Program-made: the position numbers and the translations under genes
Shown here: positions 15,833 to 31,599 of the stretch, in pieces
Position numbering within the stretch: the stretch's first letter is position 1
Layout of the letters: each line of letters starts with the position of its first letter
Notes under the pieces: generated by a model
Told to the model about the DNA's origin: nothing
What the model saw: the letters and a program-made list of their open reading frames with translations, nothing else
Database searches by the model: none
Source of the DNA: an uncultured Alphaproteobacteria bacterium
GTDB taxonomy: Bacteria; Pseudomonadota; Alphaproteobacteria; RF32; CAG-239
Assembly (NCBI GenBank): GCA_934270475.1
Contig: CAKQPS010000003.1
Coordinates: 128,318 to 192,317, forward strand
DNA: 64,000 bases
Reading direction: 5' to 3'

Positions 15833-17584
15833 TTGGAGAAAACTATGGAAAAACAAAATAACAGTGAATTATACAGGGAGTGGCTTGCTAAAATCCGTTC
15901 CTCTGAAAAAAACTATGAAGATTATTATGCGCTGGTTGAGGAAATTCGTAAATATTACCGCAATGAGCGAAAACGCAATAAGCAAAGCATTTTTTGGTCA
16001 TCGGTAGAAACTTTGAAACCGTTTTTATATTTCAAACAGCCGCAACCTTTTATTATCCGCAGCAACAAAAAATCTGACGCGGTCGAAAACACTGCCTGCC
16101 GGATTTTGGAAAAAGCTTTGGAATGGGATATGAAACAATTTGACTTTGACAGCGTTGTCAAATACGCCCGCAACGATTTTTTACTTTCGGGTATGGGAAT
16201 TTTGTGGGAGCAATATCATTCCAGTTTCAAATATATCGGCAATGTCACCTTAAAAGACAAAGAGCAGGTAACCACTCAATATGTTAACCCCATGTCGTTT
16301 TTAGCCGATGTTGATAAGGTGAATGTGTGGGAAGATGTAGAATGGATTGCCCGTAAAACTTTTATGAACGTCAGCGAAATTTACAGTAATTTCGGCGAAG
16401 AGCTGGCAGATTATTTTTGGCAGCATAATTTTACCGATAAAAGTATTTCCGTCTATGAAATTTGGGATAAGAAAACCCGTAAAATTTATTATCTCAGTCC
16501 GGAATTGCCGGATACTTTTTTACAGATTAACGAAGATACTTTGCATTTGAGCGGATTTTTCCCGTGTCCTAAGCCGATTATGGCAACTCTGACCAATGAC
16601 GGAATTGTTCCGGTGCCAGATTATGTAGAAATCAAAAGCCTGCTTGACGAGCTGGACGGAGTTAACAGCCGTATGCGGCTGACTATGCAGGCGCTGAAAG
16701 TTTCCGGCTGCTATGATAATTCTTTTCCTGAATTGGCAAACATTTTGGACAAGGATATAACACTGATAGCCTTAAATGATTTTGACAAGCTTAAAGATGC
16801 CGGAGGTATCCGCGGAATTATCGACTTTGCGCCGATTGAACAATATATCAGCACCTTGCAGGTTTTGGCGGAGCGTCGCAAAATTCTGATTGATTCCATA
16901 TATGAAGTAACTGGTGTCAGTGACATTATGCGCGGCGCCTCAAATTCACAGGATACGGCAACGGCAGTGCTCAAAAAAACAAACTTCGGCACTTTGCGCA
17001 ATCAAGACCGCCAAAATGATATGCAGCGTTTTTTGAAAGATTTGCTGCGTATTAAAGCCGAGATTATCTGTGAACAATTTTCACCGGACAGACTGGCGGC
17101 TTTTGTTGCCGATGATATGGCGCAAAAGCCTGATGTGGTGGCGCAGGCTGTGAATTTGCTGAAAACTCAAAAACTCCGCGGTATGGTTATTGAGCTGGAA
17201 ACCGACGGCAGTTTTGACATTGTTAAGCAGGAAGAAAACGTTTTGCAGGTGTTGTCGCATATTCATGAAATGATAAGTCAGGCGTTTGGTGTTGTGTCGC
17301 AGCAGCCGGCGCTTTTGCCGTTATATCGTCAAATGATTGAAGCAGCGGCGGCAACTCTTTCTAACGCCCGACAGTTTGAAAATGTGCTGGAGCAGGTTTT
17401 TGATAAAATCAGCGCCGAATTGAATGCTCCCGACCCGCAGATGCAGCCGGCAGAAGACAAAATGGTGGCGCTGCAAACGCAAAAAATGCAGCAGGATTTT
17501 GCAATTAAACAAGAACAGAATCAAATCAAACGCGAAGAGCTGGATTTGAAAAAAATTACGGAATTAAACAAAATTTCTAAATAA
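15833..17584 (+). CDS. large phage structural protein (possibly portal or head-tail connector)
   Basis: 583 aa, coiled-coil C-terminus, position at the head of a structural-gene block; assignment tentative. Confidence 0.35.
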   Translation: MEKTMEKQNNSELYREWLAKIRSSEKNYEDYYALVEEIRKYYRNERKRNKQSIFWSSVETLKPFLYFKQPQPFIIRSNKKSDAVENTACRILEKALEWDMKQFDFDSVVKYARNDFLLSGMGILWEQYHSSFKYIGNVTLKDKEQVTTQYVNPMSFLADVDKVNVWEDVEWIARKTFMNVSEIYSNFGEELADYFWQHNFTDKSISVYEIWDKKTRKIYYLSPELPDTFLQINEDTLHLSGFFPCPKPIMATLTNDGIVPVPDYVEIKSLLDELDGVNSRMRLTMQALKVSGCYDNSFPELANILDKDITLIALNDFDKLKDAGGIRGIIDFAPIEQYISTLQVLAERRKILIDSIYEVTGVSDIMRGASNSQDTATAVLKKTNFGTLRNQDRQNDMQRFLKDLLRIKAEIICEQFSPDRLAAFVADDMAQKPDVVAQAVNLLKTQKLRGMVIELETDGSFDIVKQEENVLQVLSHIHEMISQAFGVVSQQPALLPLYRQMIEAAAATLSNARQFENVLEQVFDKISAELNAPDPQMQPAEDKMVALQTQKMQQDFAIKQEQNQIKREELDLKKITELNKISK

Positions 17585-17596
17585 AGGAGAATAGAA

Positions 17597-18364
17597 ATGC
17601 CATATGACAGCAACGGATTGTTTACTAGAATGCACAGCTGGGAAGATGACCGAAAAAATGAAATAGATATTGTGTCCGACCGACACGATGAAGAAGACGA
17701 TAATTTTGCCGACGGTTTGAGCGAGTGTTTACTGAAAGACGGTCGGGCGCCGATGAAAGGCGAACTGAAAATGGGCGGCTTTCAAATTAAAAATTTGGCA
17801 AAAGGCACTGCAGAAAAAGACGCGGTAAATAAAGAGCAGCTGGAAGAAACGGTAAAATTGCTTAAAGAGGCAATGAACATGTTTTTCGGCGTGGGCGACA
17901 TTAAGGCGTCGTTGCAAACTGCCAATTATGACAATTGGTTTTTATGCAACGGGCAGGAAGTCAGCCGTACGGCTTATCCCGAATTATTTGCTTTAATCGG
18001 CACAAGTTTCGGCGCCGGAGACGGTTCAACTACCTTTAATCTGCCGGATTACCGTGGTAAGTTTCTGCGCGGTTTGGGCGGCGATTCGGCGCAGGATATG
18101 CAGACAACGCAAAAAGAAGGTCTGCCGAACATTACCGGTCAATCGCAGGCGCAGGACGGTTATTTATATGGAGCTCCTCCCACCACAGGCGCTATCCGCA
18201 TGGTAAATCCGCGCACCGGCAACACTCGTTCCGGCGACGGCGGCGGAGCCTATTATTTTACATTTGATGCCAGTTTGTCAAATTCAATTTACGGTTCAAG
18301 CAGCCATGTAACGCCGATAAATCAGGCGGTTAATTATTTTATTAAAGTAAAAAAGGAGGAATAA
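17597..18364 (+). CDS. phage tail collar domain protein (short tail fibre-like)
   Basis: FLCNGQEVSRTAYPELFALIGTSFGAGDGSTTFNLPDYRGKFLRGLGG matches the phage tail collar domain consensus. Confidence 0.7.
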   Translation: MPYDSNGLFTRMHSWEDDRKNEIDIVSDRHDEEDDNFADGLSECLLKDGRAPMKGELKMGGFQIKNLAKGTAEKDAVNKEQLEETVKLLKEAMNMFFGVGDIKASLQTANYDNWFLCNGQEVSRTAYPELFALIGTSFGAGDGSTTFNLPDYRGKFLRGLGGDSAQDMQTTQKEGLPNITGQSQAQDGYLYGAPPTTGAIRMVNPRTGNTRSGDGGGAYYFTFDASLSNSIYGSSSHVTPINQAVNYFIKVKKEE

Positions 18365-18367
18365 GCG

Positions 18368-18727
18368 ATGACAGGAAGAATTTTGCCTAATGCGGATATT
18401 ATAGAAGTGCGTCAAGGCGACAGTTTTAATATAAAATTACGGTTTAAGGCAAAAAACAAGGCGCTTGATGTGTCTAAGCTGAAAGTGCTTATGCAGGTGC
18501 GTAAAACCGAAAACGATTCTCTGGTTTTTGAAAAAGAGGCAGAACCCGTGGAAGCCGCGCAGGGAATATATTTGCTGCGTTTGACGCCGGTCGAAACATC
18601 GGCTCCGGTCGGCAGCTATAAAACAGATATTCAGGTAACGTTTGCCAACGGCGAGATAAATACGATTTTTCCGCAGAGCGTGGCAAAAGTCGGGGTGTTT
18701 CGTTTAACTCCGCAAGTAACCAAGTGA
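18368..18727 (+). CDS. phage hypothetical protein (small beta-rich)
   Basis: 119-aa ORF tightly packed in the structural module. Confidence 0.35.
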   Translation: MTGRILPNADIIEVRQGDSFNIKLRFKAKNKALDVSKLKVLMQVRKTENDSLVFEKEAEPVEAAQGIYLLRLTPVETSAPVGSYKTDIQVTFANGEINTIFPQSVAKVGVFRLTPQVTK

Positions 18728-18734
18728 GGCGCTT

Positions 18735-19736
18735 ATGCAAGAAAATATGATAGCGGTTAATATTGCCGACACGCAGGCGATAGATGTGTATTGGCAAGAT
18801 GAAGTTGTTTTTGATTTAGATGTTCATCTGATGTGGGTAAGATCCGGACAGCAGGAAATCAGCAAATATGTGTCTGAAGTCTCACTGCCGAAAATAGAGG
18901 ATTTTGCTAATCAAAAAATGCAAGATTATAGAGCCGAAGCCGAAAAAGCGGCGGTTTCTGCCAAAGAGGCAATGACTGAAGCGCAAAAACAGGCTGAAAA
19001 TGCGGCAATAAATTGTGAACTGGCAGCAGGCAGCGCGGCGCAGGCGGCGGAGAGTGTAAATCAGGTGGCAGACAAAACCAAGCAGTCGCTGCAGGAAATT
19101 GCCGACTATGCCGATACGCTAAAAACAAAAATAGATGCATCGGCTGAAACTGCAAAAACATCAATTCAAAATGCGGCTGATGAATATGTAGGCGCCGCTA
19201 AAGAAAACTTGAATGATTATGTTGAGCAAACGCTTGAGCCTGAAATGCAGGTTTATATCGGCAAAGCTCAGAACCAAGCGGACACAGCGGCGGCAAGTGC
19301 GGCGGCAGCGGCGGAAAGCGCAGCAAAAGTTGCGGATAGTTTGAAGGATAAAGCTGATATTGATGCCGGCAATTTTTCGGTAGCCGGAAAAAACACAATA
19401 ACAACTTTGGGAACGCCTGATTACAATTCAGGAATAACTTTGACTTTCAGCAAAGTTTTTACCAATGCTGGCGAAAGCAAAACTATGGCAAAGTCCGGTT
19501 TATTTTGCTTTGAGTTTTTAGCTAATAATGTGATTTCCACCATCTGTTTTTATGTCAATAACCGTTTTGTCGGGAAAATCGGAAATTCACAGACTTCATT
19601 AGCTTTTTGGGACGAAATAAATTTTCCGGTTACAAAAGGCGATGTTGTGAAAGTTACGGCAGAAACCGTTGGCGGTTTTACCGCAGCCGCTGTTGAGTCG
19701 TATCTTTTTCCGTATAAAGGGAGTATGTATGAATGA
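18735..19736 (+). CDS. putative tail fibre or receptor-binding protein (Ala-rich coiled-coil stalk plus C-terminal beta domain)
   Basis: Central AAxSAxxA heptad-like Ala/Gln-rich region followed by a Gly/Thr/Asn-rich C-terminal domain. Confidence 0.45.
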   Translation: MQENMIAVNIADTQAIDVYWQDEVVFDLDVHLMWVRSGQQEISKYVSEVSLPKIEDFANQKMQDYRAEAEKAAVSAKEAMTEAQKQAENAAINCELAAGSAAQAAESVNQVADKTKQSLQEIADYADTLKTKIDASAETAKTSIQNAADEYVGAAKENLNDYVEQTLEPEMQVYIGKAQNQADTAAASAAAAAESAAKVADSLKDKADIDAGNFSVAGKNTITTLGTPDYNSGITLTFSKVFTNAGESKTMAKSGLFCFEFLANNVISTICFYVNNRFVGKIGNSQTSLAFWDEINFPVTKGDVVKVTAETVGGFTAAAVESYLFPYKGSMYE

Positions 19737-20098
19737 TTAAATATGCACAAATTATAAATGAACAAACCAAGCAATGCGAGGTCGGAATGGGCACAAATGC
19801 CGAGTTTTACCACTCTGTTGGTATGACAGAAATGGAAGTTGAGCAAGCCTATGACGGCGCTTGGTATGTTAAAGGCTATGCGCCGGAAAAGCCGGCGGAA
19901 ATTATGCAGCAGGAAATTCGTCTAGTGCGCAACGGATATTTGCAGGAAACCGACAAATATATGATTGTCGACTATCCGCTGACCGAGGAAGAAAGGCAAA
20001 AAGTCAAAGCCTATCGGGAATATCTGCGGGACTATACCTTAATCGAAAATTGGTGGCAAAACAAGCCGCAAGGCTTTGCCGATTGGAGCAAAGAATGA
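19733..20098 (+). CDS. phage hypothetical protein
   Basis: 121-aa ORF; ATGA stop/start overlap with the next gene. Confidence 0.35.
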   Translation: MIKYAQIINEQTKQCEVGMGTNAEFYHSVGMTEMEVEQAYDGAWYVKGYAPEKPAEIMQQEIRLVRNGYLQETDKYMIVDYPLTEEERQKVKAYREYLRDYTLIENWWQNKPQGFADWSKE

Positions 20099-20388
20099 TT
20101 GATGATTTAAAGACAATCGTACTGTTTGTGCTGATGGCGATTGCGTCAGCCTATATTCATTATAAAGGCTTTTTTCAAGCCACCATAGACGCTGTGCTGG
20201 CGTTTTGCATGGGATATATAATGTATTTGCTTTTAGATTATGCCGCACTTTCTGGAGCAACGAGAAGCGGCATTTCTTGTGTGGTAATTTTATTCAGCCG
20301 CGCTCTTTATGAGTGGGGCAACGAATTTATCAAAACTAAGTTATCGGCTTTGATAGCCGGAAAGGCAGAAAAAAATGACAGAGAATGA
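20050..20388 (+). CDS. putative holin (likely start ATG 20095)
   Basis: From MIDDLKTIVLFVLMAIASAYIHY: 2-3 predicted TM helices, charged C-terminus, immediately upstream of the endolysin. Confidence 0.4.
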   Translation: MVAKQAARLCRLEQRMIDDLKTIVLFVLMAIASAYIHYKGFFQATIDAVLAFCMGYIMYLLLDYAALSGATRSGISCVVILFSRALYEWGNEFIKTKLSALIAGKAEKNDRE

Positions 20389-20806
20389 TTTGCAGATTTT
20401 AGCGCGCACATTGTTCGGCGAAGCCCGCGGCGAAGGCGATGAGGGGCTGGAGGCGGTGGCGTGCGTGATTATAAATAGATTTAAAGCCAAAAAATGGTTT
20501 ACCGGCTATGAAATGCTTAACGGCAAAAAAGTTCCGAGCGTGGCGCAGACTTGTTTAAAAAAAGCGCAGTTCAGCTGCTGGAATAAAAATGACCCTAACT
20601 ATAAACTGCTGTGCCAAAAGACAATCACTGCTTACGGTTTTCAAAAATGTCTTCAGGTGGCGCAAAAAGCTCTGTCCGGTAATTTGCAGGATTTTACCAA
20701 CGGGGCGCTGTTTTATCATACAAAGCAGATAAAACCTAAATGGGCAATTGGTAAAACACCATGTTATATTGCCGGTAATCATTTGTTTTATAATGATATT
20801 AAGTAA
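20375..20806 (+). CDS. endolysin, cell-wall hydrolase SleB/Hydrolase_2 family
   Basis: LARTLFGEARGEGDEGLEAVACVIINR...AQFSCWN...ALFYH matches the SleB-type N-acetylmuramoyl-L-alanine amidase domain. Confidence 0.6.
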   Translation: MTENDLQILARTLFGEARGEGDEGLEAVACVIINRFKAKKWFTGYEMLNGKKVPSVAQTCLKKAQFSCWNKNDPNYKLLCQKTITAYGFQKCLQVAQKALSGNLQDFTNGALFYHTKQIKPKWAIGKTPCYIAGNHLFYNDIK

Positions 20807-20817
20807 GGATAATAATA

Positions 20818-21081
20818 ATGGTCAAAAAAAAATTACAAGCCTATTCTTTTGCCGAAAGTTTGGAAATGTTAAATCGTCTACAGCAAATGGCTGTTGATGA
20901 GGGAAATATCAATTTAGCTCTAAAGGCGGAAGAATTAAAATGTAAAATTGCCGCTATGCAAACCGATAAAGAAAGTTCGCAATCGGCGGAAAACTTAACA
21001 AAAATTTTGGTGGATTTTATAAATGACAAACAGAATGATAGCAAAAATACCGAAAATCTTTGCTCCGCTGATGAAACGTAA
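20818..21081 (+). CDS. phage hypothetical protein (position suggests a small terminase subunit)
   Basis: 87-aa helical protein directly upstream of, and overlapping, the large terminase. Confidence 0.25.
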   Translation: MVKKKLQAYSFAESLEMLNRLQQMAVDEGNINLALKAEELKCKIAAMQTDKESSQSAENLTKILVDFINDKQNDSKNTENLCSADET

Positions 21082-22348
21082 GTTCCGTTATAAGCTTTAT
21101 TATGGAGGGCGAGCCGGCGGAAAATCATATGCTTTTGCCGATAGTTTGCTTTTTTTGGGACGTATGAAAAAATTGCGGATAGCTTGTATGCGTGAAGTGC
21201 AAGACAGTATTAAAGATTCGGTGCATAAACTTTTGAGTGACCGCATTAACTTTTATGACTTAACTGATTATAAAATCAGCGAAACAAAGATTGTAAATCA
21301 GCTCAGCGGTACAACTTTTATATTTAAGGGTTTAAGAGAGCAAGATTCCGGCAACATAAAATCACTTGAGGGAATTGATATTGTCTGGCTGGAAGAAGCG
21401 CAAAAAATCAGCAAAAAAAGCTGGGAGATTTTGGACCCGACGATTCGTAAATCCGGTTCGGAAATTTGGATTTCTATGAACAGGGAAGAAGAAAACGACC
21501 CGGTTTGGCTGGCTGTCGGAGCAAATCCCGATGAGCGGACTTTGGTGGTTAAAGTAAACTATACCGATAATCCGTTTTGTCCGGAAGAAATGCGTTATTT
21601 GGCGCAAAAGTGCCAAAAAGAGAGTCCGGAAGATTATGAACATATTTGGCTTGGAGCGCCGGTTGCGGTGGGTAGTCATAAGCTGATTGCGCCTAAATTG
21701 GTGCGTCAGGCGTTTGAAACTAAGCTGGAAAATCCGTCTTCTCCGCTGATTATCGGGCTGGATGTGGCGCGTTTCGGCGATGATAAAAGCGTGTTTTGCT
21801 TTCGGCGCGGACGGGTGTGTTTGTTTTTTGAAAGCTATGCCCGTTTGGATAATGTGGAAGTGGCAAATCGAGCCACTTTTTTTATCCGCCAATATAAACC
21901 GGCGCGGGTGTTTGTTGATGCCGGCGGCGTGGGCGGCGGTGTGGTGGATATTTTGAACGACCGCGGTTTTAAGCGAGTTGTGCGGGCAGTAATGTTTGGA
22001 GCAAAGGCGCTGGCTGACGACCGCTATCACAACCGCCGCGCTGAGATGTGGGATGAGCTGCGGATATGGCTGAGCGGCGAGCAAAAAGTGGAACTGCCGA
22101 ATGATGAAAATTTGGCAAATGAGCTTTGCGCCGTTAACAAAAAATATGACAGCCGCGGACGTTTGCAGTTGGAAGAAAAAGAAGAAATTAAAAAGCGGTT
22201 GGGCAAGTCGCCGGATATGGCGGATGCTTTGGCGCTGACTTTTGCCGAGCCGGTTTTTGAGAGGTCAGACGAAGAGTGCGGACGTCTGCCGGGCGACAGC
22301 ATAGAAAGTATGTTTCGCGCCAATAAATCCACCGATGATAAATGGTAA
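21023..22348 (+). CDS. phage terminase large subunit
   Basis: Walker A YYGGRAGGKSYAF, Walker B-like DIVWLEEAQ, C-terminal nuclease-like acidic motifs (VFVDAGGVGGGVVD); 441 aa. Confidence 0.8.
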   Translation: MTNRMIAKIPKIFAPLMKRKFRYKLYYGGRAGGKSYAFADSLLFLGRMKKLRIACMREVQDSIKDSVHKLLSDRINFYDLTDYKISETKIVNQLSGTTFIFKGLREQDSGNIKSLEGIDIVWLEEAQKISKKSWEILDPTIRKSGSEIWISMNREEENDPVWLAVGANPDERTLVVKVNYTDNPFCPEEMRYLAQKCQKESPEDYEHIWLGAPVAVGSHKLIAPKLVRQAFETKLENPSSPLIIGLDVARFGDDKSVFCFRRGRVCLFFESYARLDNVEVANRATFFIRQYKPARVFVDAGGVGGGVVDILNDRGFKRVVRAVMFGAKALADDRYHNRRAEMWDELRIWLSGEQKVELPNDENLANELCAVNKKYDSRGRLQLEEKEEIKKRLGKSPDMADALALTFAEPVFERSDEECGRLPGDSIESMFRANKSTDDKW

Positions 22349-22560
22349 TTTTTTTAAGAGAAAGGATAAAATAAAATGAGTTACAAATCTAGAATAATGC
22401 GTGAAAACGAGGCTTACGGCTGGCTGCCGGAAGATGAGGCTTATGGCAGAGTTTCTAATGTTCCGACACAGCCGGAACCGGAAGACGAAAACATCTACAG
22501 CGACAACGAACTTGCTCCGGAAAGAAGCGAGGAAGAAATATAATTTGAAAGGATATAAAA

Positions 22561-22689
22561 ATGAGTATGTATAAAATAAATGAAAAAACTGGAATAGATG
22601 AATTTGGAATAGATCACTCTAATTTTTCTTTAAGAGATGAACTAGAATATAATATGATGAGAGCCAAACAATCTATGCCAAAACAATAA
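22561..22689 (+). CDS. small phage ORF (43 aa) paralogous to the N-terminus of the 29580 ORF
   Basis: MSMYKINEKTGIDEFGIDHSNFSLRDELEYNMMRAKQ versus MSLYDIDEKTQIDEYGVCHKDFSLRDELEYNAMRQN; below the length cut-off of the ORF track. Confidence 0.3.
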   Translation: MSMYKINEKTGIDEFGIDHSNFSLRDELEYNMMRAKQSMPKQ

Positions 22690-22725
22690 AGTGTTGTTAG
22701 ACAAGCAGTTGGGGCAATAAAAGAT

Positions 22726-23046
22726 ATGAATCGTAATTATTGGGATATGAAAAGAGATAATACCATTGGAAATGATGATTATTTTCATTGCAAAGCTAAT
22801 TATGAAGCTGCAGATAGAGGTGATTTAGGCAGATCAATAGCCCAGTGGTTAGGGGATAAAAAAGAAGATTTTGATTATTATAAAAATCAGCTTAGAGGAT
22901 TATCCGCTTTAGAAGCATCTTTAGATAGAATTCACGATAGAAATGTAAATAAAATAGGTAGACAACGAGCTCAAAGCGGTTTATATTCAAACTCACGAGA
23001 TGCCTGTGAATCTTTTAGAGTTAAAGGTATAAACGACGACTATTAA
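22726..23046 (+). CDS. serum amyloid A (SAA)-domain protein
   Basis: YWDMKRDNTIGNDDYFHCKANYEAADRGDLG aligns to SAA [31 protein letters not shown]; C-terminal ...FRVKGINDDY* parallels SAA ...FRPAGLPEKY*. Confidence 0.6.
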   Translation: MNRNYWDMKRDNTIGNDDYFHCKANYEAADRGDLGRSIAQWLGDKKEDFDYYKNQLRGLSALEASLDRIHDRNVNKIGRQRAQSGLYSNSRDACESFRVKGINDDY

Positions 23047-23064
23047 AATTAAGGAATAAAACAT

Positions 23065-23289
23065 ATGAAACTGGTATTTTATTTTGCAGCAGTATTTATC
23101 ATTTTGGCGGTTATTGGTTTTGCCGGATATTTGTTTTTTGATAAACAAGCCTATTGCTTGGATATTGGAAAAATCTATGATCCGGTGCAAAAAATCTGCC
23201 GTGATGACTGTTTGAGTTGGAACGACCAAACCGGCTGCGTGCCGATAACAGATGAAAACCGGCAGAAAAAAGCCGCCGGAAAACTATAA
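23065..23289 (+). CDS. small membrane-anchored or secreted Cys-containing protein
   Basis: N-terminal hydrophobic helix MKLVFYFAAVFIILAVIGFAGYLFF, 4 Cys in the soluble part. Confidence 0.35.
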   Translation: MKLVFYFAAVFIILAVIGFAGYLFFDKQAYCLDIGKIYDPVQKICRDDCLSWNDQTGCVPITDENRQKKAAGKL

Positions 23290-23373
23290 AAAAATAATTA
23301 TTGGCTTTATTGAGCAAAACGCTTTGTTGATATAAAAACAAGGCGTTTTTTTATACCCGAAATTTGGAGAAAT

Positions 23374-23604
23374 ATGATGACTTTCATCAGCAGACAATTC
23401 GCGGAAGAGGTGCTTCTTCCGGACGGATCTGTCGCGTCTTCGGTCGCGGACGTTGACAAGTATTTACACGCCACGGGTTTAGCCTTGGCGGGCGACTATT
23501 CACCCGAATATTATCAAAATATTCGCAATCAACAAGAAAGAGAACGGCAGCAGTCTTTGTTTGCCGATTTTCTTTATAACTACAAAAGGATGATATGGAA
23601 ATGA
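23374..23604 (+). CDS. phage hypothetical protein
   Basis: 76-aa ORF overlapping the start of the next gene. Confidence 0.25.
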   Translation: MMTFISRQFAEEVLLPDGSVASSVADVDKYLHATGLALAGDYSPEYYQNIRNQQERERQQSLFADFLYNYKRMIWK

Positions 23605-24473
23605 ATGATTTAAGAAAGGAAATTGAACGACAATTCAAAGCGTTCGGTTTATCTGAACCAGACGAAAAAGCCACAGGAGAGGATAGTTCTGCTGTCTCAA
23701 ATAATGAAGAAGATAGCGGGTTTATTGCAGCTCCTGCTGACTTTGAACCGGAATATGCGGCAGCGTTTAGCGAACTTTCGCCGAAATGGCAAAAGTATTT
23801 AAGCAAGCGTGAAGAAAAATTGAAAGCCGAACGTCAGGAGCTGTCTGCCAAAATAGGACTTTTAGACAGTCTGAAAAATTTGGACGGCGAATTTCAAAAA
23901 CGTAAAACCGAAAACAACATACACAGCTTGCGCGAATGGCTTGAAGGTTTGGCATATATTGACGAACAAATGCACAGCCGCCCTGTGGAAACCTTAAACG
24001 CCATCGCTCAGGTGTTTAAGGTCAAGGCGCAGTTTTCGGAAACTCCGCAAACCGAAATTTCTGATCGAATTTTAAAAAGGCTTAGCGATCTCGATTTGAG
24101 TTTTCACAGCCTGAGAGACTATTTGCAGCAAAGCGAGCAAAGAAGTTTTTACAGTCAAATACAAGCGTTCGGTTCACAAAAAGATGAATCCGGACATTTA
24201 CTGCACCCGTATTTTGACGCTGTTTTTAAACAAATGCAGGCTTTGTTGCAAAACGGACTGGCATCAAGCATTGAAGACGCCTACAAGCAGGCGGTTTGGC
24301 TCAATGCCGATGTCCGTAAAGAGTTGATTGCCAAGCAAATCGACTCTGACGCCGCTGAAGCGCAAAAAGCGCAGAAAGCGGCATTTTCCCCAAAGGGAAA
24401 AGCAAAAGCACCGGAAAGACCTCTGACCTTGCGGGAAGAGATTGAAAAAAATATGGCTGCTTTTTTGGATTAA
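23595..24473 (+). CDS. putative scaffolding protein
   Basis: Acidic, helix-rich 292-aa protein immediately upstream of the capsid-like gene; basic Lys-rich C-terminal tail. Confidence 0.35.
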   Translation: MEMNDLRKEIERQFKAFGLSEPDEKATGEDSSAVSNNEEDSGFIAAPADFEPEYAAAFSELSPKWQKYLSKREEKLKAERQELSAKIGLLDSLKNLDGEFQKRKTENNIHSLREWLEGLAYIDEQMHSRPVETLNAIAQVFKVKAQFSETPQTEISDRILKRLSDLDLSFHSLRDYLQQSEQRSFYSQIQAFGSQKDESGHLLHPYFDAVFKQMQALLQNGLASSIEDAYKQAVWLNADVRKELIAKQIDSDAAEAQKAQKAAFSPKGKAKAPERPLTLREEIEKNMAAFLD

Positions 24474-24497
24474 CTTAAAATTTTAAAAGGATAGAAA

Positions 24498-25463
24498 ATG
24501 ACAAATAAAAATTACAATGAAGTGTTTACCGTAACTTTGAACAATCGTTCAAAAGAAATGGCTGATAATATTTCTAAAAACAACGCGCTTTTAACCCGTC
24601 TGAAAGACAAAGGCAAAATGCGTCCGCTGACCGGTGGTGCCAAAATTTTGGAAGAACTGGAATACGGCGAGGGCGATATGGTGTGGTATTCCGGCTATGA
24701 TACCATTAACTATACTCCAAAGCAATTGTTTACAGCAGCGGAATATGCACTTAAATTGTGCGCTGTGCCGGTGGCTATTTCTGGTGAAGAATTGCTGATG
24801 AACAGCGGACCGGAACAAGTTATGGATTTGTTTGAAAAGCGTATTTCTAACGCCGAAAAAACTTTGAAAAATCAAATGTCTGCCGCTTTGTTCAGCGACG
24901 GCACCGGTTCAGCAGGCAAAGAAATCGGCGGCTTGGCTTTGCTGGTCGCAGACGATCCGACTTCCGGCACGGTCGGCGGTATTGACCGTTCGGCGGCTGG
25001 AAATGAATTTTGGCGCAACCAAAGCGTAAGCGCTGATATTGATTCTTCCAATATCCGTCAGATGATGAACAGCTTATATCACAAATGCTGCCGCAACGCC
25101 GATAAACCGGATTTAATTGTTTGCGATGATGCTTTGTATACGTTGTTTGATGAATCTTTGTCGGCTTTGCAGCGTTTTTCTGACCCTAAAATGGCGGATG
25201 CTGGTTTCACCAGTCTTAAATTTAAGGGTGCAGATGTGATTTTTGACGGCGGTCAAGGCGGCTATTGTCCGGAAAAACACATGTACTTTTTGAACACAAA
25301 CTACATTTATCTGCGCACTCATAAAGACCGCAATATGAAAATTATCGGCGGCGACAGATTGGCGATAAATCAGGATGCGTTATACCGTATCATTGGCTGG
25401 GCAGGCAATATGACTATGTCAAATGCGGCTGTTCAAGGCGTGTTGATTAACACTAAAGAATAA
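24498..25463 (+). CDS. putative major capsid protein
   Basis: 321 aa; position after the scaffold-like gene; segments resemble T7-like capsid patterns (DKPDLIVCDDALYTLF); strong RBS AAAGGATAG; tentative. Confidence 0.4.
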   Translation: MTNKNYNEVFTVTLNNRSKEMADNISKNNALLTRLKDKGKMRPLTGGAKILEELEYGEGDMVWYSGYDTINYTPKQLFTAAEYALKLCAVPVAISGEELLMNSGPEQVMDLFEKRISNAEKTLKNQMSAALFSDGTGSAGKEIGGLALLVADDPTSGTVGGIDRSAAGNEFWRNQSVSADIDSSNIRQMMNSLYHKCCRNADKPDLIVCDDALYTLFDESLSALQRFSDPKMADAGFTSLKFKGADVIFDGGQGGYCPEKHMYFLNTNYIYLRTHKDRNMKIIGGDRLAINQDALYRIIGWAGNMTMSNAAVQGVLINTKE

Positions 25464-25547
25464 TTGGTAAAAATTGAAAGGGAGTGAACTAAAATCACTC
25501 CTTTTCAATATGTTATAAAATCAAGATAAAGTAAAGGAATAAAAACT

Positions 25548-26132
25548 ATGGATATGGATTTTGCCTTGTTTCAACAAGTAATCGGCACAAAAGAAACAGA
25601 AAAAAACGTGGCGGCAAGATTTTATGATAAAGCGGTTAAAACTAACGAGGTTGCAGACAACGGTCTGCCGGTTTTTAAAAATGTTACTTATATAGAAATC
25701 CGTCTGAAAGATAACAATACCGAAGTGTTTGACCAGCCGGCGACCGCAGATAAAATCCGGCGCTTTCCGCAGGAATATGCCTTGTATAAGCTTTCTAAAA
25801 AGCAAACGGAAAACGGCACGCCGCTGGAGCAATTTGCATTTTTGACCGCGGCAGAAATTGCTACCTGCAAAAGCCGCGGCGTGTTTACGGTGGAAACTTT
25901 AGCGGGTTTGGATTTTGATAAGGTGCAAAGCCTTGGTTTGCAGGACGAACATGTTTTAGCGCAGATGTTTTTAGAAAAATCAGAAAATAACAAGATGTTA
26001 GATGATTTTGCCAAAAAGGAGCTTGAATATGAAAGAGAAATTGAAACTTTGCGCGAACAGCTGGCGGCTGTGCAAAGAGCTCTTAGTGAAGAGCGTAAAA
26101 AACATTCCGGCGCCAAAGCGGGAGAAAAATAA
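25548..26132 (+). CDS. phage hypothetical protein
   Basis: 194 aa with a C-terminal coiled coil; RBS AAAGGAATAA. Confidence 0.35.
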   Translation: MDMDFALFQQVIGTKETEKNVAARFYDKAVKTNEVADNGLPVFKNVTYIEIRLKDNNTEVFDQPATADKIRRFPQEYALYKLSKKQTENGTPLEQFAFLTAAEIATCKSRGVFTVETLAGLDFDKVQSLGLQDEHVLAQMFLEKSENNKMLDDFAKKELEYEREIETLREQLAAVQRALSEERKKHSGAKAGEK

Positions 26133-26854
26133 TGAAGACAATTTTAGAAATATGCCGCGAGGTTGCGGATTTAGCGGCGACAAAACGCCCAAATAATTTG
26201 TTTGACGCCAACAGCCAGCAGGAAAGTATTTTTTTAAGCGTGGCAAAATCGGCTCTCGACAGCCTGCTGCGCTACGGCGATTGGCAGGAACTGACCAAAG
26301 AAGGCTGTTTGCGCACGGTTGAAGGGCGCACTCAATACCCAATTTCCGAATTTTTGCCGGATTTTTTCTGCCTTTTGAATAACACGATTTTTATTAAAGA
26401 CAGTAAAGAGCGCATAATCGGCGCCATTACGCCGGAGCAGTGGATGAGGGAAAAATATTTTTCCAGTCCAAGCAATGAATTGAAATTCAAAATTCAAAAC
26501 GGGCGCTTTGTTTTTTTAACTCCGCCGGCAGGCGGTTTGCGGATTGTGTTTCAATATCGTTCCAACGGCGTGGTTTGGGATTTTGACACTTTTGAAGAAA
26601 AAAGCTCGCTCACCGCCAACACTGATGTTCCGGTTTTTGACGAATATTTGGTTAAGCTGAATATTTTGTGGCGATGGCTTAAACGCAGCGGGCTGGATTA
26701 TGGCGAAGAATATGATGAATTTCAGCGTGAATTAAAAAAGCGCTTTGGTTCCGAGCACGCCGCCGCCAACATAAATTTGGCAAAGTCGGATAATGGTTTG
26801 AGCGAAACAGGAGTAATAATCAATGAAATTAAAATCAGCAGCGCGGGGCACTAA
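26132..26854 (+). CDS. phage hypothetical protein
   Basis: 240-aa ORF, ATGA overlap with the upstream gene. Confidence 0.35.
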   Translation: MKTILEICREVADLAATKRPNNLFDANSQQESIFLSVAKSALDSLLRYGDWQELTKEGCLRTVEGRTQYPISEFLPDFFCLLNNTIFIKDSKERIIGAITPEQWMREKYFSSPSNELKFKIQNGRFVFLTPPAGGLRIVFQYRSNGVVWDFDTFEEKSSLTANTDVPVFDEYLVKLNILWRWLKRSGLDYGEEYDEFQRELKKRFGSEHAAANINLAKSDNGLSETGVIINEIKISSAGH

Positions 26855-28382
26855 GTCGGTAAGTTACACTTTGCCCGCGCCGATAAAGGGATTGAATGTG
26901 CGTGACAGTTTGGCGGATATGGACGCTGGTTACGCTGTTGTTATGGACAACTATATGCCGCTGGATACTAAAGTTGCTTTGCGCAAAGGCTATGTTGAAT
27001 ATGCGCAGCTGCCGGAAAAAGTGTGCACTTTAGCTGAATATAAAACCGGCAGCGGCAGCTATTTTATGGCGCTGTCCGGCGGAGCAGCCTATAATATCAG
27101 CTCGCGCAAAAATATTTACGCTTATGAAAATGTAAAATTTACCAACAGCTATTGCCGTACCCAGCAATATAAAAATTATTTGTATTTTGTAAACGGCAGC
27201 GACATTCCCAAAGTCTATTACCGCGATGACGACGGAATAGAACATTTTGAGGACTGGGGCTTCAGCGCCGAAAATTTGAATGCCACGCGCATTTCCGGCA
27301 TCGGGCTTTCCAAGCAGCGCTTATGGTTTATTGAAGGTGGCACTCTCAAAGTTTGGTATCCTGAAACCGCCGGCAATATCGCCGGTAAGCTGAATTGCTT
27401 TGATTTGGCGCAGGTGGCGCGGTTCGGCGGCGAGCTGATGGCGGTTGCCAACTGGACGCAGGACGGCGGTCAGGGTATTGATGATTTGACGGTGTTTATC
27501 ACTTCGGAAGGCGAAGCTTTAGTTTACGTTGGGTCAGACATTAACAATGCCGACAGCTGGCAGCTGAAGGGTTCCTACAAAATCAGCCGTCCGATTGGCT
27601 ATAATTGCTTGGTGCCGTATCAGGGCGATGTGGTTATAATTTCCGAAGACGGCTATATTCCGCTGTCCAAGGCTTTGCCGTTGGAACAAGCCAATGCGTC
27701 GCAAATAGCTTTCAGCGATGCCGTCCGCGGTTTGGTGCTGTCGCGGACTGCGCGTAATTTGAAACGTTACGGCTGGCAGGGAATAATTTACAGCCGCGGC
27801 GGTTACGGGCTGTTTAACGTACCGGTTTCCAATCAGTATGAACAGCATGTGATTAACGTAAACACCGGCGCTTGGTGCCGTTTTACTGGTATCCGCGCGC
27901 ATTGTTGGGGCTTGTATAATCAACGGCTTTATTTTGGCTCGGATCAAGGTGTTTATTTGTTTGATGAAAGCTATGCTGATAACGGAATGGAAATCAGCGG
28001 CTGCGTCGAGCAGGCATATAATGATTTGGGCAGCAACTGCGTTAAAAAAATTCAGCTGCTGAACCCGCGTACCAAATCCAGCTCCGGCTATACACTGGTA
28101 ATTTATACCAATATGGATATGGAAAGCCGTAAAATTGACTATCAGGAAAACTTATCGTCTTCAAACCTGCATAAGTGGAATGAAACCAAATGGTCAAGCT
28201 CGGCAGAACCGCTTGGCATAAAATGGGGCGCTGCCGACAGCACGTCTATCCGCAGCCAATGGATAGCTAATTCCGCCACAGGCTACAAAGCCAGCGTGGT
28301 GTTTAAAACCAAGACCAAAGGCAATTTGATAGAGTGGTTTGAAACCGGAATCCGCTATGAAGTCGGGAGCGGAGTGCTATGA
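26823..28382 (+). CDS. phage structural protein (519 aa; portal or tail component possible)
   Basis: Large beta-rich ORF in the late module; function not assignable by eye. Confidence 0.35.
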   Translation: MKLKSAARGTKSVSYTLPAPIKGLNVRDSLADMDAGYAVVMDNYMPLDTKVALRKGYVEYAQLPEKVCTLAEYKTGSGSYFMALSGGAAYNISSRKNIYAYENVKFTNSYCRTQQYKNYLYFVNGSDIPKVYYRDDDGIEHFEDWGFSAENLNATRISGIGLSKQRLWFIEGGTLKVWYPETAGNIAGKLNCFDLAQVARFGGELMAVANWTQDGGQGIDDLTVFITSEGEALVYVGSDINNADSWQLKGSYKISRPIGYNCLVPYQGDVVIISEDGYIPLSKALPLEQANASQIAFSDAVRGLVLSRTARNLKRYGWQGIIYSRGGYGLFNVPVSNQYEQHVINVNTGAWCRFTGIRAHCWGLYNQRLYFGSDQGVYLFDESYADNGMEISGCVEQAYNDLGSNCVKKIQLLNPRTKSSSGYTLVIYTNMDMESRKIDYQENLSSSNLHKWNETKWSSSAEPLGIKWGAADSTSIRSQWIANSATGYKASVVFKTKTKGNLIEWFETGIRYEVGSGVL

Positions 28383-28804
28383 GCGATGAATATGAAATTC
28401 TGCCAGATGAAAACAATATCATAGCCAAGTGGGTCTGTGATGGTTTGGGTGAAAATGCAGATTGGCTCGACACGCATACGACTTATGGCTTTGCCCAAGG
28501 CGGAAAAATGCTCGGCGGGCTGATTTTTCACAGTTACCGCCCCAATATAGAGGTTTGGTGGACAGTTTACACCGTTGACAAGCGTTGGTGTAACCGCCGT
28601 ATGCTTAGAGCTATGTTTGATTTGGCGTTTAACAAGCTAAAATGCCGGCGTATTTCGCTGCTGGTGAGCAAAAGCAACGCCGCCAGCTTAAATTTTGTAA
28701 AAAAACTCGGTTTTCAGCAAGAAGGAATGTTCAGGGCATATCGTGAAAACGGCGATGACTGCTGCATTTTCGGCATGCTGAAAAACGAATGTAAATGGAT
28801 ATAA
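28379..28804 (+). CDS. GNAT family N-acetyltransferase
   Basis: RRMLRAMFDLAFNKLKCRRISLLVSKSNAASLNFVKKLGFQQEG matches GNAT motifs A/B (acetyl-CoA binding). Confidence 0.55.
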   Translation: MSDEYEILPDENNIIAKWVCDGLGENADWLDTHTTYGFAQGGKMLGGLIFHSYRPNIEVWWTVYTVDKRWCNRRMLRAMFDLAFNKLKCRRISLLVSKSNAASLNFVKKLGFQQEGMFRAYRENGDDCCIFGMLKNECKWI

Positions 28805-28820
28805 AGAAAGGAAAAAAGAA

Positions 28821-29543
28821 ATGAGTAAATCTATAGGAAAAGTTTTTGCTAACTCTTCAACTAATAAATATGGTTATGAAAATAACTATTTGAATTATCT
28901 TGGTAATTATGATACTTCAAATTATGACAATACCTTAAAAAATATGACAGGGCAGGCGCTTAGCATGAGTCAAAATTTGGGCAGTATGCCGGAATATCAG
29001 TTTTCGGTTAACGGTTCGGACGAGGCTCGTCAGCGTGCGGAAAACGCTGTGTATCAATCGGCGGTGGATAAAATTACGCCGCAATATCAGCAGCTGCGGA
29101 CCGATTTGGAAACAAGTTTGGCAAACAAAGGAATCAGCGTTGGCAGCGAGGCTTATCAGCGGGCGATGAACGACCTGCAGCAAAAGCAAAATGAGGCGCT
29201 CAATCAAGCGGCATATCAAAGCATTGCAGCGGGACAGGGTGCATATAGCCAAAGTTTGAGCGACAATATCAACAGCGCAAATTTCAACAATAATTCGCAG
29301 CTGAATTATATTCAGCAAATTAAGGCGCTGCTGGAAGGTTCGGTTTCTGGCTATCAGAATCAGGCAAATTTGTACGGCATCAATAAAGATGTAGAAAACC
29401 GTTTGACCTCGGCGCGCCAAAGCGGCTGGGATAATATGTTCAAAACCGCGCAGACAATAGGACAGGTTGCCGGAGCTTTTTCCGGCGGCGGTACAAGTTT
29501 AGCCGCCAAACAGGCAGCTGAAAAAGCCCAAGAACAAAAATAA
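28821..29543 (+). CDS. Q/N/S-rich low-complexity phage protein
   Basis: 240 aa; N-terminal N/Y-rich stretch NKYGYENNYLNYLGNYDTSNYDN, then Gln/Asn/Ala-rich helical region. Confidence 0.4.
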   Translation: MSKSIGKVFANSSTNKYGYENNYLNYLGNYDTSNYDNTLKNMTGQALSMSQNLGSMPEYQFSVNGSDEARQRAENAVYQSAVDKITPQYQQLRTDLETSLANKGISVGSEAYQRAMNDLQQKQNEALNQAAYQSIAAGQGAYSQSLSDNINSANFNNNSQLNYIQQIKALLEGSVSGYQNQANLYGINKDVENRLTSARQSGWDNMFKTAQTIGQVAGAFSGGGTSLAAKQAAEKAQEQK

Positions 29544-29579
29544 AATGTAATGTAACTTAAAAAATCTAGGAGAATTAAA

Positions 29580-30619: not shown

Positions 30620-30695
<76 letters not shown>

Positions 30696-31597: not shown

Positions 31598-31599
31598 AG

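What the first reader, a model, noticed from the sequence alone, without database searches (positions are those of the whole stretch)
22726..23046. Serum amyloid A (SAA)-domain homologue encoded inside the prophage
The 106-aa product aligns along its whole length with vertebrate SAA: DMKRDNTIGNDDYFHCKANYEAADRGDLG versus [29 protein letters not shown]. The C-terminal ...FRVKGINDDY parallels SAA ...FRPAGLPEKY, with roughly 40% identity in the core. SAA is an acute-phase, lipid- and retinol-binding apolipoprotein of animals. A phage-borne copy in a likely host-associated bacterium suggests a eukaryote-like moron gene. Next to it are a small Cys-containing membrane or secreted protein (23065-23289) and the 43-aa paralogous module (22561-22689).
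Basis: partly seen in the sequence, partly recalled or inferred. Interest (0 to 1): 0.7.

Follow-up and report, generated by a model that had tools for sequence, protein, structure and literature searches.

The report
Broken bacterial SAA-like toxin with immunity gene
The ORF is a true relative of animal serum amyloid A, but it is the tail of a bacterial "prok-SAA" toxin gene cut by a stop codon, paired with its membrane immunity gene inside a phage-derived element, which is a recently described kind of system and not a gene borrowed from animals.

Summary
ORF 22726..23046 matches Pfam SAA (E=3.7e-16, 59.8 bits against a cut-off of 30.8). A model of the intact allele superposes on mouse SAA3 and human SAA1 crystal structures (TM 0.76-0.82).

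- **One gene, not two.** The 106-aa ORF and the "43-aa module" (22561..22689) are one 161-codon gene, split here by a CAA->TAA nonsense codon at 22687-22689. Intact alleles sit at the same place in the same element elsewhere.
- **A partner gene.** The next gene (23065..23289, one membrane helix plus four invariant Cys) follows SAA homologues in about 55 of 71 genome loci. It fits the published "Imm-SAA" immunity protein.
- **Bacterial, not animal.** The protein scores 95 bits against a prokaryotic SAA profile and 56 against an animal one. It keeps the predicted catalytic residues and has no signal peptide.

The N-terminal module also heads proteins with peptidoglycan-degrading domains, including a second low-GC cassette in this window (29580..30567).

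Best reading: a prok-SAA (Lipocone) toxin-immunity cassette carried as a low-GC moron in a 16-kb podovirus-derived element of a gut alphaproteobacterium. The toxin is probably inactive here and the immunity gene is retained. This is a known kind (Burroughs et al. 2025). The undescribed N-terminal module is the only new element.

The parts
22561..23046 (+). Ancestral 161-codon toxin gene (N-terminal 'N42' module, linker, prok-SAA domain), interrupted in this window
   Evidence: Both ORFs share one frame. Homologues P0009, P0022 and P0160-P0173 are uninterrupted proteins of 159-163 aa, 96-99% identical. The intact allele sits at the same position in the same element in L091.
22561..22689 (+). 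5' fragment: 42-aa ORF encoding the N42 module (IDEFGIDHSNFSLRDELEYNxMR)
   Evidence: The module recurs at the N-terminus of 167 protein clusters, whose C-termini carry varied cell-wall-targeting domains.
22687..22689 (+). TAA nonsense codon replacing Gln43 (CAA) in the linker RAKQSMPKQQN
   Evidence: Translations of 11 near-identical loci. The window allele has Q43*. A second lineage has an independent Q37*. Other alleles read Q at both sites.
22726..23046 (+). 3' fragment: the 106-aa ORF of the finding. It holds the SAA domain from mid-helix 1 to the C-terminus.
   Evidence: Pfam SAA E=3.7e-16. Conserved H21, E47, D50, D71, N75, G78, R79 in ORF numbering correspond to H76, E102, D105, D126, N130, G133, R134 of the intact protein.
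23065..23289 (+). Candidate immunity gene (Imm-SAA type): N-terminal membrane helix followed by a small domain with four invariant Cys (C31, C45, C49, C58)
   Evidence: A homologue lies immediately downstream of SAA homologues in about 55 of 71 genome loci, down to about 30% identity. AF2 predicts a TM helix at 2-24, four strands at 37-60 and a helix at 63-70. This fits the published description.
23316..23352 (+). Intrinsic-terminator-like hairpin (13-bp stem, 8-nt loop, U run) closing the cassette
   Evidence: RNA fold gives -19.1 kcal/mol, z = -4.07 against shuffles.
22959..22987 (+). Promoter-like site (TAGACA, 17 nt, TATATT) inside the toxin gene, 78 nt upstream of the immunity gene. This is a hint only.
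   Evidence: Consensus scan, 10 of 12 matches. No functional evidence.
29580..30038 (+). Second N42-headed protein of the element (152 aa) with an unrelated, unannotated C-terminal domain
   Evidence: The N42 region is 58% identical to 22561..22689, E=2e-14. No Pfam match. The C-terminal domain is shared with L085_255.
30130..30567 (+). Multi-pass membrane protein (145 aa), candidate immunity partner of the second cassette
   Evidence: Homologues follow the same toxin domain in L085 and lie in the toxin island of L083. GC of this cassette is 0.324.
14334..30567 (+). Podovirus-derived structural and lysis gene cluster that carries both cassettes
   Evidence: PHROGs and Pfam identify portal, tail fibre, endolysin, large terminase, major head and tail proteins. 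The same element occurs in many gut metagenome contigs.

Best explanation
The locus is a two-gene toxin-immunity cassette of the prok-SAA / Imm-SAA type (Lipocone superfamily). It was acquired as a low-GC moron by a podovirus-derived element of an uncultured gut alphaproteobacterium. The ancestral toxin has 161 aa: a 42-aa N-terminal module (N42) that this lineage also attaches to peptidoglycan-degrading toxin domains, a Gln/Lys-rich linker, and a soluble five-helix SAA-fold domain. By analogy with the related enzyme TelC, that domain is predicted to cut phosphate-linked head groups of envelope lipid carriers such as lipid II, outside the cytoplasm. The 74-aa partner is anchored in the inner membrane with its disulfide-stabilised domain in the periplasm, where it would neutralise incoming toxin. 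In this window the toxin gene carries a nonsense codon (Q43*) between N42 and the SAA domain. The 106-aa ORF is therefore a remnant lacking N42 and half of helix 1 and is probably inactive, while the immunity gene is intact. Shown: homology, fold, the gene split, the conserved pairing, modular N42 usage, the GC island and the terminator. Inferred: enzymatic activity and substrate, periplasmic site of action, the neutralising role of the partner, and the export or delivery route.
For: Homology and fold. Gene split, with intact alleles in the same element. Prokaryotic rather than animal affiliation. The subfamily is already listed as prok-SAA in PMC12419801. The residues proposed there as the active site (His in H2, Glu in H3, an acidic residue at the end of H3, Asp and sNxxGR in H4) are invariant or nearly so here: H76, E102, D105, D126, N130, G133, R134. 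Pairing: among all ORFs of 71 genome loci, only the SAA cluster (66 loci) and the four-Cys cluster (59 loci) recur. Every other neighbour family occurs in at most 7 loci. Extra tandem copies of the four-Cys gene occur in L066 (5 copies), L012 (3), L037, L047, L048 and L070, as is typical of immunity genes. The partner's predicted TM helix plus four strands and four invariant Cys fits 'TM+Imm-SAA'. In that paper's network the gene upstream of Imm-SAA is Prok-SAA in 75 cases. N42 heads 167 protein clusters. Of 89 members scanned, C-terminal domains include GH108 (8 members), SAA (7), PG_binding_3 (4), VgrG3-like_C (3), Tlde1 (2), YkuD (2), SLT (2) and GH46 (1), all aimed at the cell wall. Two invariant Cys in the toxin (C77, C149) and four in the partner suggest an oxidising, extracytoplasmic site of action. 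Moron anatomy: GC 0.309 against 0.418 and a terminator. Toxin decay with immunity retention: Q43*, Q37* and deletion alleles all keep an intact 74-aa gene in L072-L077, L079, L080, L092 and L093.
Against: No prok-SAA protein has been assayed; the activity is extrapolated from TelC and PTDSS. The toxin has no signal peptide or recognised secretion-system domain, and N42 has no Pfam match, so the way out of the producer and into a target is unknown. Many homologues are bare SAA domains with no N-terminal extension at all. I identified the partner with the published Imm-SAA from a verbal description and domain labels, not by comparing sequences. The Cys4 model is only moderately confident (pLDDT 78.6, pTM 0.39) and has no structural match in the PDB. 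I could not measure whether C77 and C149 are close in the model. Re-initiation at M56 could still give a partly active protein. In three loci the partner gene is also frameshifted (L078, L081, L082), so the whole cassette may simply be decaying.
Confidence: 0.7

Rival explanations
1. Particle-associated entry enzyme plus superinfection exclusion. N42 would target small cell-wall or lipid-carrier enzymes into or onto the phage-like particle. They would be ejected into the recipient's periplasm to help penetration or to kill non-lysogens, and the membrane partner in the lysogen would block them and thereby exclude related particles.
For: The element carries two N42-headed genes. Related elements carry up to six, directly after the endolysin gene (L031, L033). 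N42 partners include GH108, SLT and VgrG3-type lysozymes, typical of virion-associated wall hydrolases. The proteins are small, helical and lack signal peptides. MuF-linked, phage-delivered prok-SAA toxins are already catalogued.
Against: N42 toxins also sit in plain chromosomal contexts with no phage gene within 8 kb: next to rplK/rplA/rplJ, the suf operon, OmpH and a sulfatase. Phage-borne SAA genes in L009, L025 and L026 lack N42. None of the 41 IMG/VR relatives of this phage family contains N42. Most SAA/four-Cys pairs are not next to phage genes.
Confidence: 0.12
2. Eukaryote-like moron. The gene would be a mimic of animal SAA, acquired from or converging on the host protein, that acts on the animal host through lipid, retinol or HDL binding or by triggering innate immune receptors.
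For: The homology and fold match to SAA1 and SAA3 are real, including the retinol-bound SAA3 structure 6py0. All close relatives come from gut or rumen bacteria.
Against: The protein scores higher against prokaryotic than animal SAA profiles, 95 against 56 bits, and prokaryotic sequences fill the top 19 BLAST ranks. It has no signal peptide for secretion. It is obligatorily paired with a bacterial membrane protein. Its N-terminal module is shared with peptidoglycan hydrolases. Relatives occur in non-host-associated predators such as Archangium and Pseudobdellovibrionaceae. Published phylogeny has animals acquiring SAA from bacteria. The gene is broken in this window and in many other copies.
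Confidence: 0.04
3. Housekeeping-type envelope enzyme with a membrane partner. The SAA domain and the four-Cys protein would cooperate in remodelling the producer's own envelope lipids or polysaccharide carriers, for example to change the surface and block phage adsorption, with no toxin-antidote relationship.
For: Many Lipocone families are metabolic enzymes of envelope lipids. Bare SAA domains without export signals are common. Some loci neighbour glycosyltransferase, GtrA and PMT_2 genes (L085).
Against: Tandem arrays of the four-Cys gene without matching SAA genes fit immunity better than a stoichiometric partner. So do the repeated loss of the SAA gene with retention of the partner, the modular swapping of N42 onto lysozymes and L,D-transpeptidase-like toxins, and the scattered, non-syntenic genomic positions.
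Confidence: 0.08

Closest known systems
prok-SAA family with Imm-SAA immunity proteins (Lipocone superfamily, SAA-Wnt clade; Burroughs, Nicastro and Aravind, eLife 2025, PMC12419801; also Zamocky and Ferianc 2023 as cited there)
   Same: Same domain, with the same conserved H/E/D/sNxxGR positions and the same two-gene layout: a membrane-anchored four-Cys partner immediately downstream. Sequences of this very subfamily are in their prok-SAA list, for example MBR3675759.1, MBQ9034887.1 and MBR1600814.1.
   Different: Their listed delivery contexts are T6SS, MuF, PGBD fusions and a metallopeptidase-vWD architecture. The N42 N-terminal module, the podovirus-derived carrier element and the recurrent nonsense alleles are not mentioned in the text I read.
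Animal serum amyloid A (SAA1, SAA3; PDB 4ip8, 4ip9, 4q5g)
   Same: Four long helices, a short fifth helix and a C-terminal tail. About 30% identity over about 115 columns, TM 0.76-0.82. The YFH, RE and NxxGR motifs are shared.
   Different: The animal proteins have a signal peptide, no conserved Cys pair, no partner gene and no N42. The window protein fits the prokaryotic profile better. The H3-H4 connection is longer here.
TelC / TipC of Streptococcus intermedius (a lipid II phosphatase toxin with a membrane-associated immunity protein)
   Same: Same superfamily according to PMC12419801. It is the only assayed relative. [quoted passage not shown] This is the template for the proposed mechanism.
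   Different: It belongs to a different Lipocone family, is exported by a type VII system through an LXG domain, comes from a Gram-positive host, and its immunity protein is unrelated.
Colicin M / Cmi and pesticin / Pim (my own knowledge, not tested here)
   Same: The logic matches. A toxin without a signal peptide attacks lipid II or peptidoglycan in the target's periplasm. A small immunity protein is anchored by an N-terminal helix with its domain in the periplasm. A short N-terminal region handles import.
   Different: The folds are unrelated. No TonB box or receptor-binding domain has been shown in N42. The resemblance is functional analogy only.
MuF polymorphic toxins of temperate phages (Jamet et al. 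2017, recalled from memory; MuF is named as a prok-SAA context in PMC12419801)
   Same: Toxin-immunity pairs encoded inside the head-morphogenesis region of prophages.
   Different: There is no MuF domain here. N42 has only 42 aa and also occurs outside phages.

Membership tests
Pfam SAA domain (PF00277) | Profile score above the curated gathering threshold | tested here: met
   59.8 bits against 30.8, E=3.7e-16, for the 106-aa ORF. 69.2 bits over profile positions 4-102 for the intact homologue P0039.
Pfam SAA domain (PF00277) | SAA fold: a cone of four helices plus a short fifth helix and C-terminal tail | tested here: met
   AF2 of the intact allele gives pLDDT 90.1, with helices at 45-65, 73-84, 88-111, 116-139 and 145-148. 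The only Foldseek PDB matches are SAA1 and SAA3, TM 0.76-0.82. The window ORF itself lacks residues 45-55 of helix 1.
prok-SAA (Lipocone, SAA-Wnt clade) | Conserved predicted active site: His in H2, Glu in H3, an acidic residue at the end of H3, Asp and sNxxGR in H4 | tested here: met
   H76, E102, D105 and N130 are invariant in both alignments. R134 is invariant in both, G133 is invariant in 12 sequences and at least 90% conserved in 32, and D126 likewise. The motif here reads V-N-K-I-G-R.
prok-SAA (Lipocone, SAA-Wnt clade) | Closer to prokaryotic than to animal SAA sequences | tested here: met
   95.2 against 56.3 bits for the window ORF, and 100.7 against 63.1 for the intact allele, using HMMs built from the paper's own sequence lists with this subfamily left out. 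The top 19 BLAST hits are prokaryotic.
prok-SAA (Lipocone, SAA-Wnt clade) | Catalytic activity on phosphate-linked lipid head groups | not testable with these tools
   No member of this family has been assayed. The activity is inferred from TelC and PTDSS1/2.
Imm-SAA immunity protein (for ORF 23065..23289) | TM or lipoprotein anchor, plus a small domain combining a helix with four strands held by four absolutely conserved Cys, encoded next to prok-SAA | tested here: met
   AF2 predicts a TM helix at 2-24, strands at 37-39, 44-46, 49-53 and 57-60, and a helix at 63-70. The four Cys are invariant or nearly so. Adjacency is seen in about 55 of 71 loci. The match is to the published description only; no Imm-SAA sequence was available for comparison.
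Imm-SAA immunity protein (for ORF 23065..23289) | Binds and neutralises the cognate toxin | not testable with these tools
   No complex prediction or experiment was possible.
Polymorphic toxin system | A constant N-terminal region joined to varied C-terminal toxin domains, each with its own adjacent immunity gene | tested here: met
   N42 lies at the N-terminus of 167 clusters carrying SAA, GH108, VgrG3-like, Tlde1, YkuD, SLT, GH46 or unknown domains. The window has two such genes with different partners. L031 holds six N42 genes.
Polymorphic toxin system | A recognised trafficking domain (PAAR, RHS, LXG/WXG, MuF, VirD4-binding, T9SS signal or signal peptide) | tested here: not met
   Neither N42 nor the linker has a Pfam or PHROG match. 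The N-terminus is hydrophilic. No secretion-system genes appear among annotated neighbours.
Animal (Met-)SAA apolipoprotein | A secreted protein with an N-terminal signal peptide and best fit to the animal SAA profile | tested here: not met
   No hydrophobic N-terminal segment is present in any allele. The score against the animal profile is lower than against the prokaryotic one.
Phage moron | An insert of deviant composition between conserved phage genes, absent from relatives, with its own transcription signals | tested here: met
   GC is 0.309 against 0.418. IMG/VR relatives show large terminase, portal, orf76, scaffold and major head protein in that order, with no cassette there. In related elements the cassette sits elsewhere (L009, L031, L033, L101). 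A terminator is present. The promoter is only a consensus match.

The most novel reading that the evidence does not exclude
N42 may be an undescribed trafficking module that defines a new family of short, signal-less polymorphic toxins in gut and rumen Alphaproteobacteria. These would act on the cell wall and lipid carriers. Release or delivery would be coupled to a phage-derived particle or its lysis cassette, so that the 16-kb structural-genes-only element would work as a toxin-dispensing, GTA- or tailocin-like device and not as a replicating prophage.
Probability: 0.15. Interest if true: 0.65.

Novelty: new member of a known kind. Interest (0 to 1): 0.35.

Why it matters
The case shows how a striking "animal gene in a phage" signal resolves into a bacterial conflict system. 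The SAA fold is a bacterial toxin domain that animals later acquired, not the reverse. The locus offers a compact, tractable pair for the first biochemical test of prok-SAA activity: a 161-aa toxin and a 74-aa immunity protein, with natural intact, nonsense and deletion alleles. Such a test would also bear on the still-unsettled molecular function of human SAA. The N42 module links SAA domains to known peptidoglycan hydrolases. That is independent contextual support for a cell-envelope target, and it points to an uncharacterised export or import route in gut Alphaproteobacteria.

Tried and rejected
- Megablast of 20300-25500 against 50,697 GenBank phage records found no match.
- PHROGs gave nothing for the SAA ORF, the four-Cys protein, N42, orf55 or orf76.
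- Pfam gave nothing for the second toxin or its partner.
- A pattern scan of IMG/VR with the SAA alignment found no relative. A tblastn of loci fetched through the major head protein did find one degraded SAA plus Imm-SAA-like pair (L101) and one weak, divergent hit (L099).
- Foldseek of the four-Cys model against the PDB found nothing meaningful. The afdb50 library was unavailable.
- I looked for a conserved gene upstream of N42 toxins that could be an adaptor or carrier. The upstream proteins (window 240 aa, L085 226 aa, L083 194 aa) are unrelated to each other.
- I considered stop-codon recoding or read-through of the TAA and rejected it. Other genes in the element end in ordinary stops, no suppressor tRNA is present, two different Gln codons are hit in two lineages, and intact alleles are common. 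Ordinary C-to-T nonsense mutations explain this.
- The standard terminator scan missed the hairpin after the cassette; direct folding found it.
- Model coordinates are not exposed, so I could not measure the C77-C149 distance or how N42 docks on the domain.

Full report
**1. The observation**

It matches Pfam PF00277 (SAA) at E=3.7e-16 and 59.8 bits, against a curated cut-off of 30.8. The match covers the whole ORF and profile positions 14-102 of 102. PHROGs has no family for it. phmmer against all PDB sequences returns only serum amyloid A chains, with human SAA1 at E=6e-9.

**2. The ORF is a fragment of a longer gene**

The two are separated by one TAA (22687-22689) and 12 sense codons.

The 5.8-billion-protein search returned 78 relatives. 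Many are 159-163 aa long and read ...RAKQSMPKQ-Q-NVVRQAVGAIKDMNRNYWDM... without interruption.

I translated 11 near-identical loci from gut metagenomes. This showed several alleles of one gene:
- The window allele carries Q43->TAA. It is seen on 14-18 contigs.
- A second, independent allele carries Q37->TAA. Its protein, P0002, is on 70 contigs.
- Deletion alleles (P0064, P0068, P0140) fuse upstream sequence to the middle of the SAA domain.
- Intact alleles are common. Their cluster has 47 members, one of them on 33 contigs.

One intact allele lies at the same position in the same element (L091). The ATG of the 106-aa ORF is Met56 of the ancestral protein and falls in the middle of SAA helix 1 (residues 45-65 in the model). 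Consistent with this, the intact homologue P0039 matches the Pfam profile from position 4 at 69.2 bits. No suppressor tRNA is present.

I conclude that this window holds a recent nonsense allele. Any product starting at Met56 would lack the N-terminal module and half of helix 1.

**3. Structure**

AlphaFold2 on the intact allele with 32 homologues gave pLDDT 90.1 and pTM 0.80. It predicts helices at 45-65, 73-84, 88-111 and 116-139, and a short one at 145-148. A further helix at 24-36 belongs to the N-terminal module.

Foldseek against the PDB returns only mouse SAA3 and human SAA1 with meaningful scores: probability 1.00, TM 0.76-0.82 normalised to the target, rmsd 2.4-4.0 Å and about 30% identity. 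Everything else has E above 4.

**4. The neighbour is a conserved partner**

A scan of one genome per species (GTDB) found 71 loci with relatives. Nearly all are gut or rumen MAGs labelled Alphaproteobacteria. One is Archangium and one Pseudobdellovibrionaceae.

tblastn with the 74-aa protein of 23065..23289 finds a homologue directly downstream of the SAA gene in about 55 of these loci, even where identity falls to about 30%. The shared motif is C-L-D-x-G-x-[IV]-[YW]-D-x3-K-x-C-R-x-D-C-L-x-W-x4-G-C, and the four Cys never vary.

I clustered all 1,200 ORFs of these loci. Only two families recur: SAA in 66 loci and the four-Cys protein in 59. No other family exceeds 7 loci. Neighbours include tsf, rpsB, rplK/rplA/rplJ, the suf operon and efflux pumps. 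The pair is therefore an autonomous, mobile two-gene cassette.

Several loci hold extra tandem copies of the four-Cys gene: L066 has 5 and L012 has 3, and L037, L047, L048 and L070 also have extras.

The AF2 model of the 74-aa protein (pLDDT 78.6) has a TM helix at 2-24, four short strands at 37-60 and a terminal helix. Homologues carry Lys-rich N-termini ahead of the TM helix. By the positive-inside rule this puts the Cys domain in the periplasm. The model has no PDB fold match.

**5. What the literature says**

Burroughs, Nicastro and Aravind (eLife 2025, PMC12419801) define the Lipocone superfamily. Its SAA-Wnt clade contains prokaryotic prok-SAA, which they infer gave rise to animal SAA.

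They propose an active site of His (H2), Glu (H3), an acidic residue at the end of H3, and Asp with an sNxxGR motif in H4. The proposed chemistry acts on phosphate-linked lipid head groups. It is modelled on TelC, which cleaves lipid II and is active only outside the cytoplasm.

They list prok-SAA among toxin tips of polymorphic toxins. [quoted passage not shown] Their tables name it Imm-SAA. Its upstream partners are Prok-SAA (75), RHS (17) and MuF (14).

Their prok-SAA sequence list contains members of this very subfamily, for example MBR3675759.1, MBQ9034887.1, MBR1600814.1 and MBS5833706.1.

In my alignments H76, E102, D105 and N130 are invariant, and D126, G133 and R134 are invariant or at least 90% conserved. 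The motif here reads V-N-K-I-G-R.

**6. Prokaryotic or animal?**

I built HMMs from 24 animal SAA and 25 prok-SAA sequences taken from the paper's supplement, leaving out this subfamily.
- The window ORF scores 95.2 bits against the prokaryotic model and 56.3 against the animal model.
- The intact allele scores 100.7 and 63.1.
- In a joint BLAST the first 19 hits are prokaryotic.

No allele has a signal peptide. A recent acquisition from an animal host is not supported.

**7. The N-terminal module (N42)**

The module has a second copy in the window at 29580..29729 (58% identity, E=2e-14). It heads a 152-aa protein with an unrelated C-terminus.

Related loci carry arrays of such genes: six in L031, three in L033 and two each in L004 and L023.

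A profile of eight N42 copies searched against 1.84 billion representative proteins found 167 clusters (E<=1e-3). The match was within the first 110 residues in every listed case and started in the first 20 in most.

Pfam scanning of 89 members of at least 120 aa gave Glyco_hydro_108 (8), SAA (7), PG_binding_3 (4), VgrG3-like_C (3), Tlde1 (2), YkuD (2), SLT (2), GH46 (1) and PG_binding_1 (1). The other members had no match, and no family covers N42 itself. Every recognised partner domain attacks peptidoglycan. This places the SAA domain among periplasm-acting cell-wall toxins and gives independent contextual support for an envelope target.

N42 is not tied to phages. N42-Tlde1 and N42-SAA genes lie in ordinary chromosomal neighbourhoods. 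Phage-borne SAA genes in L009, L025 and L026 lack N42. None of 41 IMG/VR relatives of this phage family contains N42.

How these signal-less proteins leave the producer and reach a target periplasm remains open. Release through the element's lysis genes, followed by N42-mediated uptake in the manner of colicin M or pesticin, is my preferred guess. Loading into particles is the alternative.

**8. The carrier element and moron anatomy**

PHROGs and Pfam identify these genes:
- portal, 15833..17584
- tail fibre / collar, 17597..18364
- fibre assembly, 19733..20098
- endolysin, 20375..20806
- large terminase, 21023..22348
- major head protein, 24498..25463
- tail protein, 26132..26854
- a 519-aa protein
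- a GNAT acetyltransferase

The cassette lies between the terminase and orf76/scaffold. Its GC is 0.309, against 0.418 for the element and 0.42-0.43 for the flanks. The second cassette has GC 0.324.

A 13-bp hairpin with a U run follows the immunity gene (-19.1 kcal/mol, z=-4.07). A promoter-like site lies within the toxin gene upstream of the immunity gene, but this is a consensus match only.

In IMG/VR relatives the order is large terminase, portal, orf76, scaffold and major head protein, with no cassette between them. In related elements the cassette sits after the endolysin (L009, L031, L033) or before the terminase (L101, where the SAA part is degraded and the Imm-SAA-like gene is intact). 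These are the marks of a moron.

**9. Verdict**

The SAA homology is confirmed. The thing itself is a prok-SAA/Imm-SAA toxin-immunity cassette, a recently described kind. It is carried by a phage-derived element, and its toxin gene is broken in this window. The "eukaryote-like" interpretation is not supported.

What may be new:
- the N42 module and its family of short cell-wall toxins
- the recurrent inactivation of the toxin with retention of the immunity gene
- the nature of the 16-kb carrier element

Enzymatic activity, neutralisation by the partner and the delivery route are all inferred, not shown.

Noticed in passing
window 29580..30567: A second low-GC (0.324) cassette lies at the end of the element. 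It holds a 152-aa protein with the same N42 head and an unannotated C-terminal domain with two conserved Cys, followed by a 145-aa multi-pass membrane protein. The same toxin domain and membrane partner occur together in L085-L087, next to an SAA/four-Cys pair. This is probably an unrelated toxin-immunity pair with an unknown toxin fold.
   Followed up: partly
window 14334..30567 (compare L092, L094-L134): The 'prophage' is only about 16 kb and holds structural and lysis genes. No integrase, replication or repressor family is recognised. Related IMG/VR phages are 31-35 kb and have a different gene order. The element sits next to priA in a strain that is only 77-88% identical at the DNA level. 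It could be a defective prophage or a domesticated GTA- or tailocin-like particle cluster.
   Followed up: partly
L031 7959..16260 and L033 8000..11420: Arrays of up to six N42-headed genes lie directly downstream of the endolysin gene of a related element. Their C-termini differ: SAA, GH108 lysozyme, a second Lipocone-like domain and unknowns. Several are truncated, like a polymorphic-toxin 'cassette graveyard'.
   Followed up: partly
L078, L081, L082 (about 20 nt after the SAA stop): In part of the Q37* lineage the immunity gene is also frameshifted by a short deletion near its start, so some copies have lost both genes.
   Followed up: partly
window 28379..28804: A GNAT acetyltransferase is conserved inside the structural module, between the 519-aa protein and the 240-aa Asn/Gln-rich protein. 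It is present in this element and in nearly all IMG/VR relatives, which is unusual for a head-tail gene block. Its role is unknown.
   Followed up: no
window 30620..31756: A cluster of tRNA-Ala(GGC), tRNA-Asn and tRNA-Cys genes on the minus strand brackets a small serine recombinase (resolvase plus HTH, 30794..31474) right after the element. This block is absent from the syntenic locus L092, so it may be a separate small insertion or the site of rearrangement.
   Followed up: no
window 22376..22543: A 55-aa, very acidic ORF (orf55) sits between the large terminase and the toxin gene. It is conserved in all close copies of the element but has no family match. Deletion alleles of the toxin (P0064, P0068) fuse an alternative frame of this region to the SAA domain.
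   Followed up: no
L089 1214..2377: A 387-aa protein with a long form of the N42 region (YxSPxGY...IDSYGVNHSGF...NYPQxGTNFWG...NNYGFG) has a faint pesticin-like lysozyme match. It shows that the 42-aa module in the window is the short version of an N-terminal region of about 90 aa with Gly/Asn/Tyr-rich repeats.
   Followed up: no
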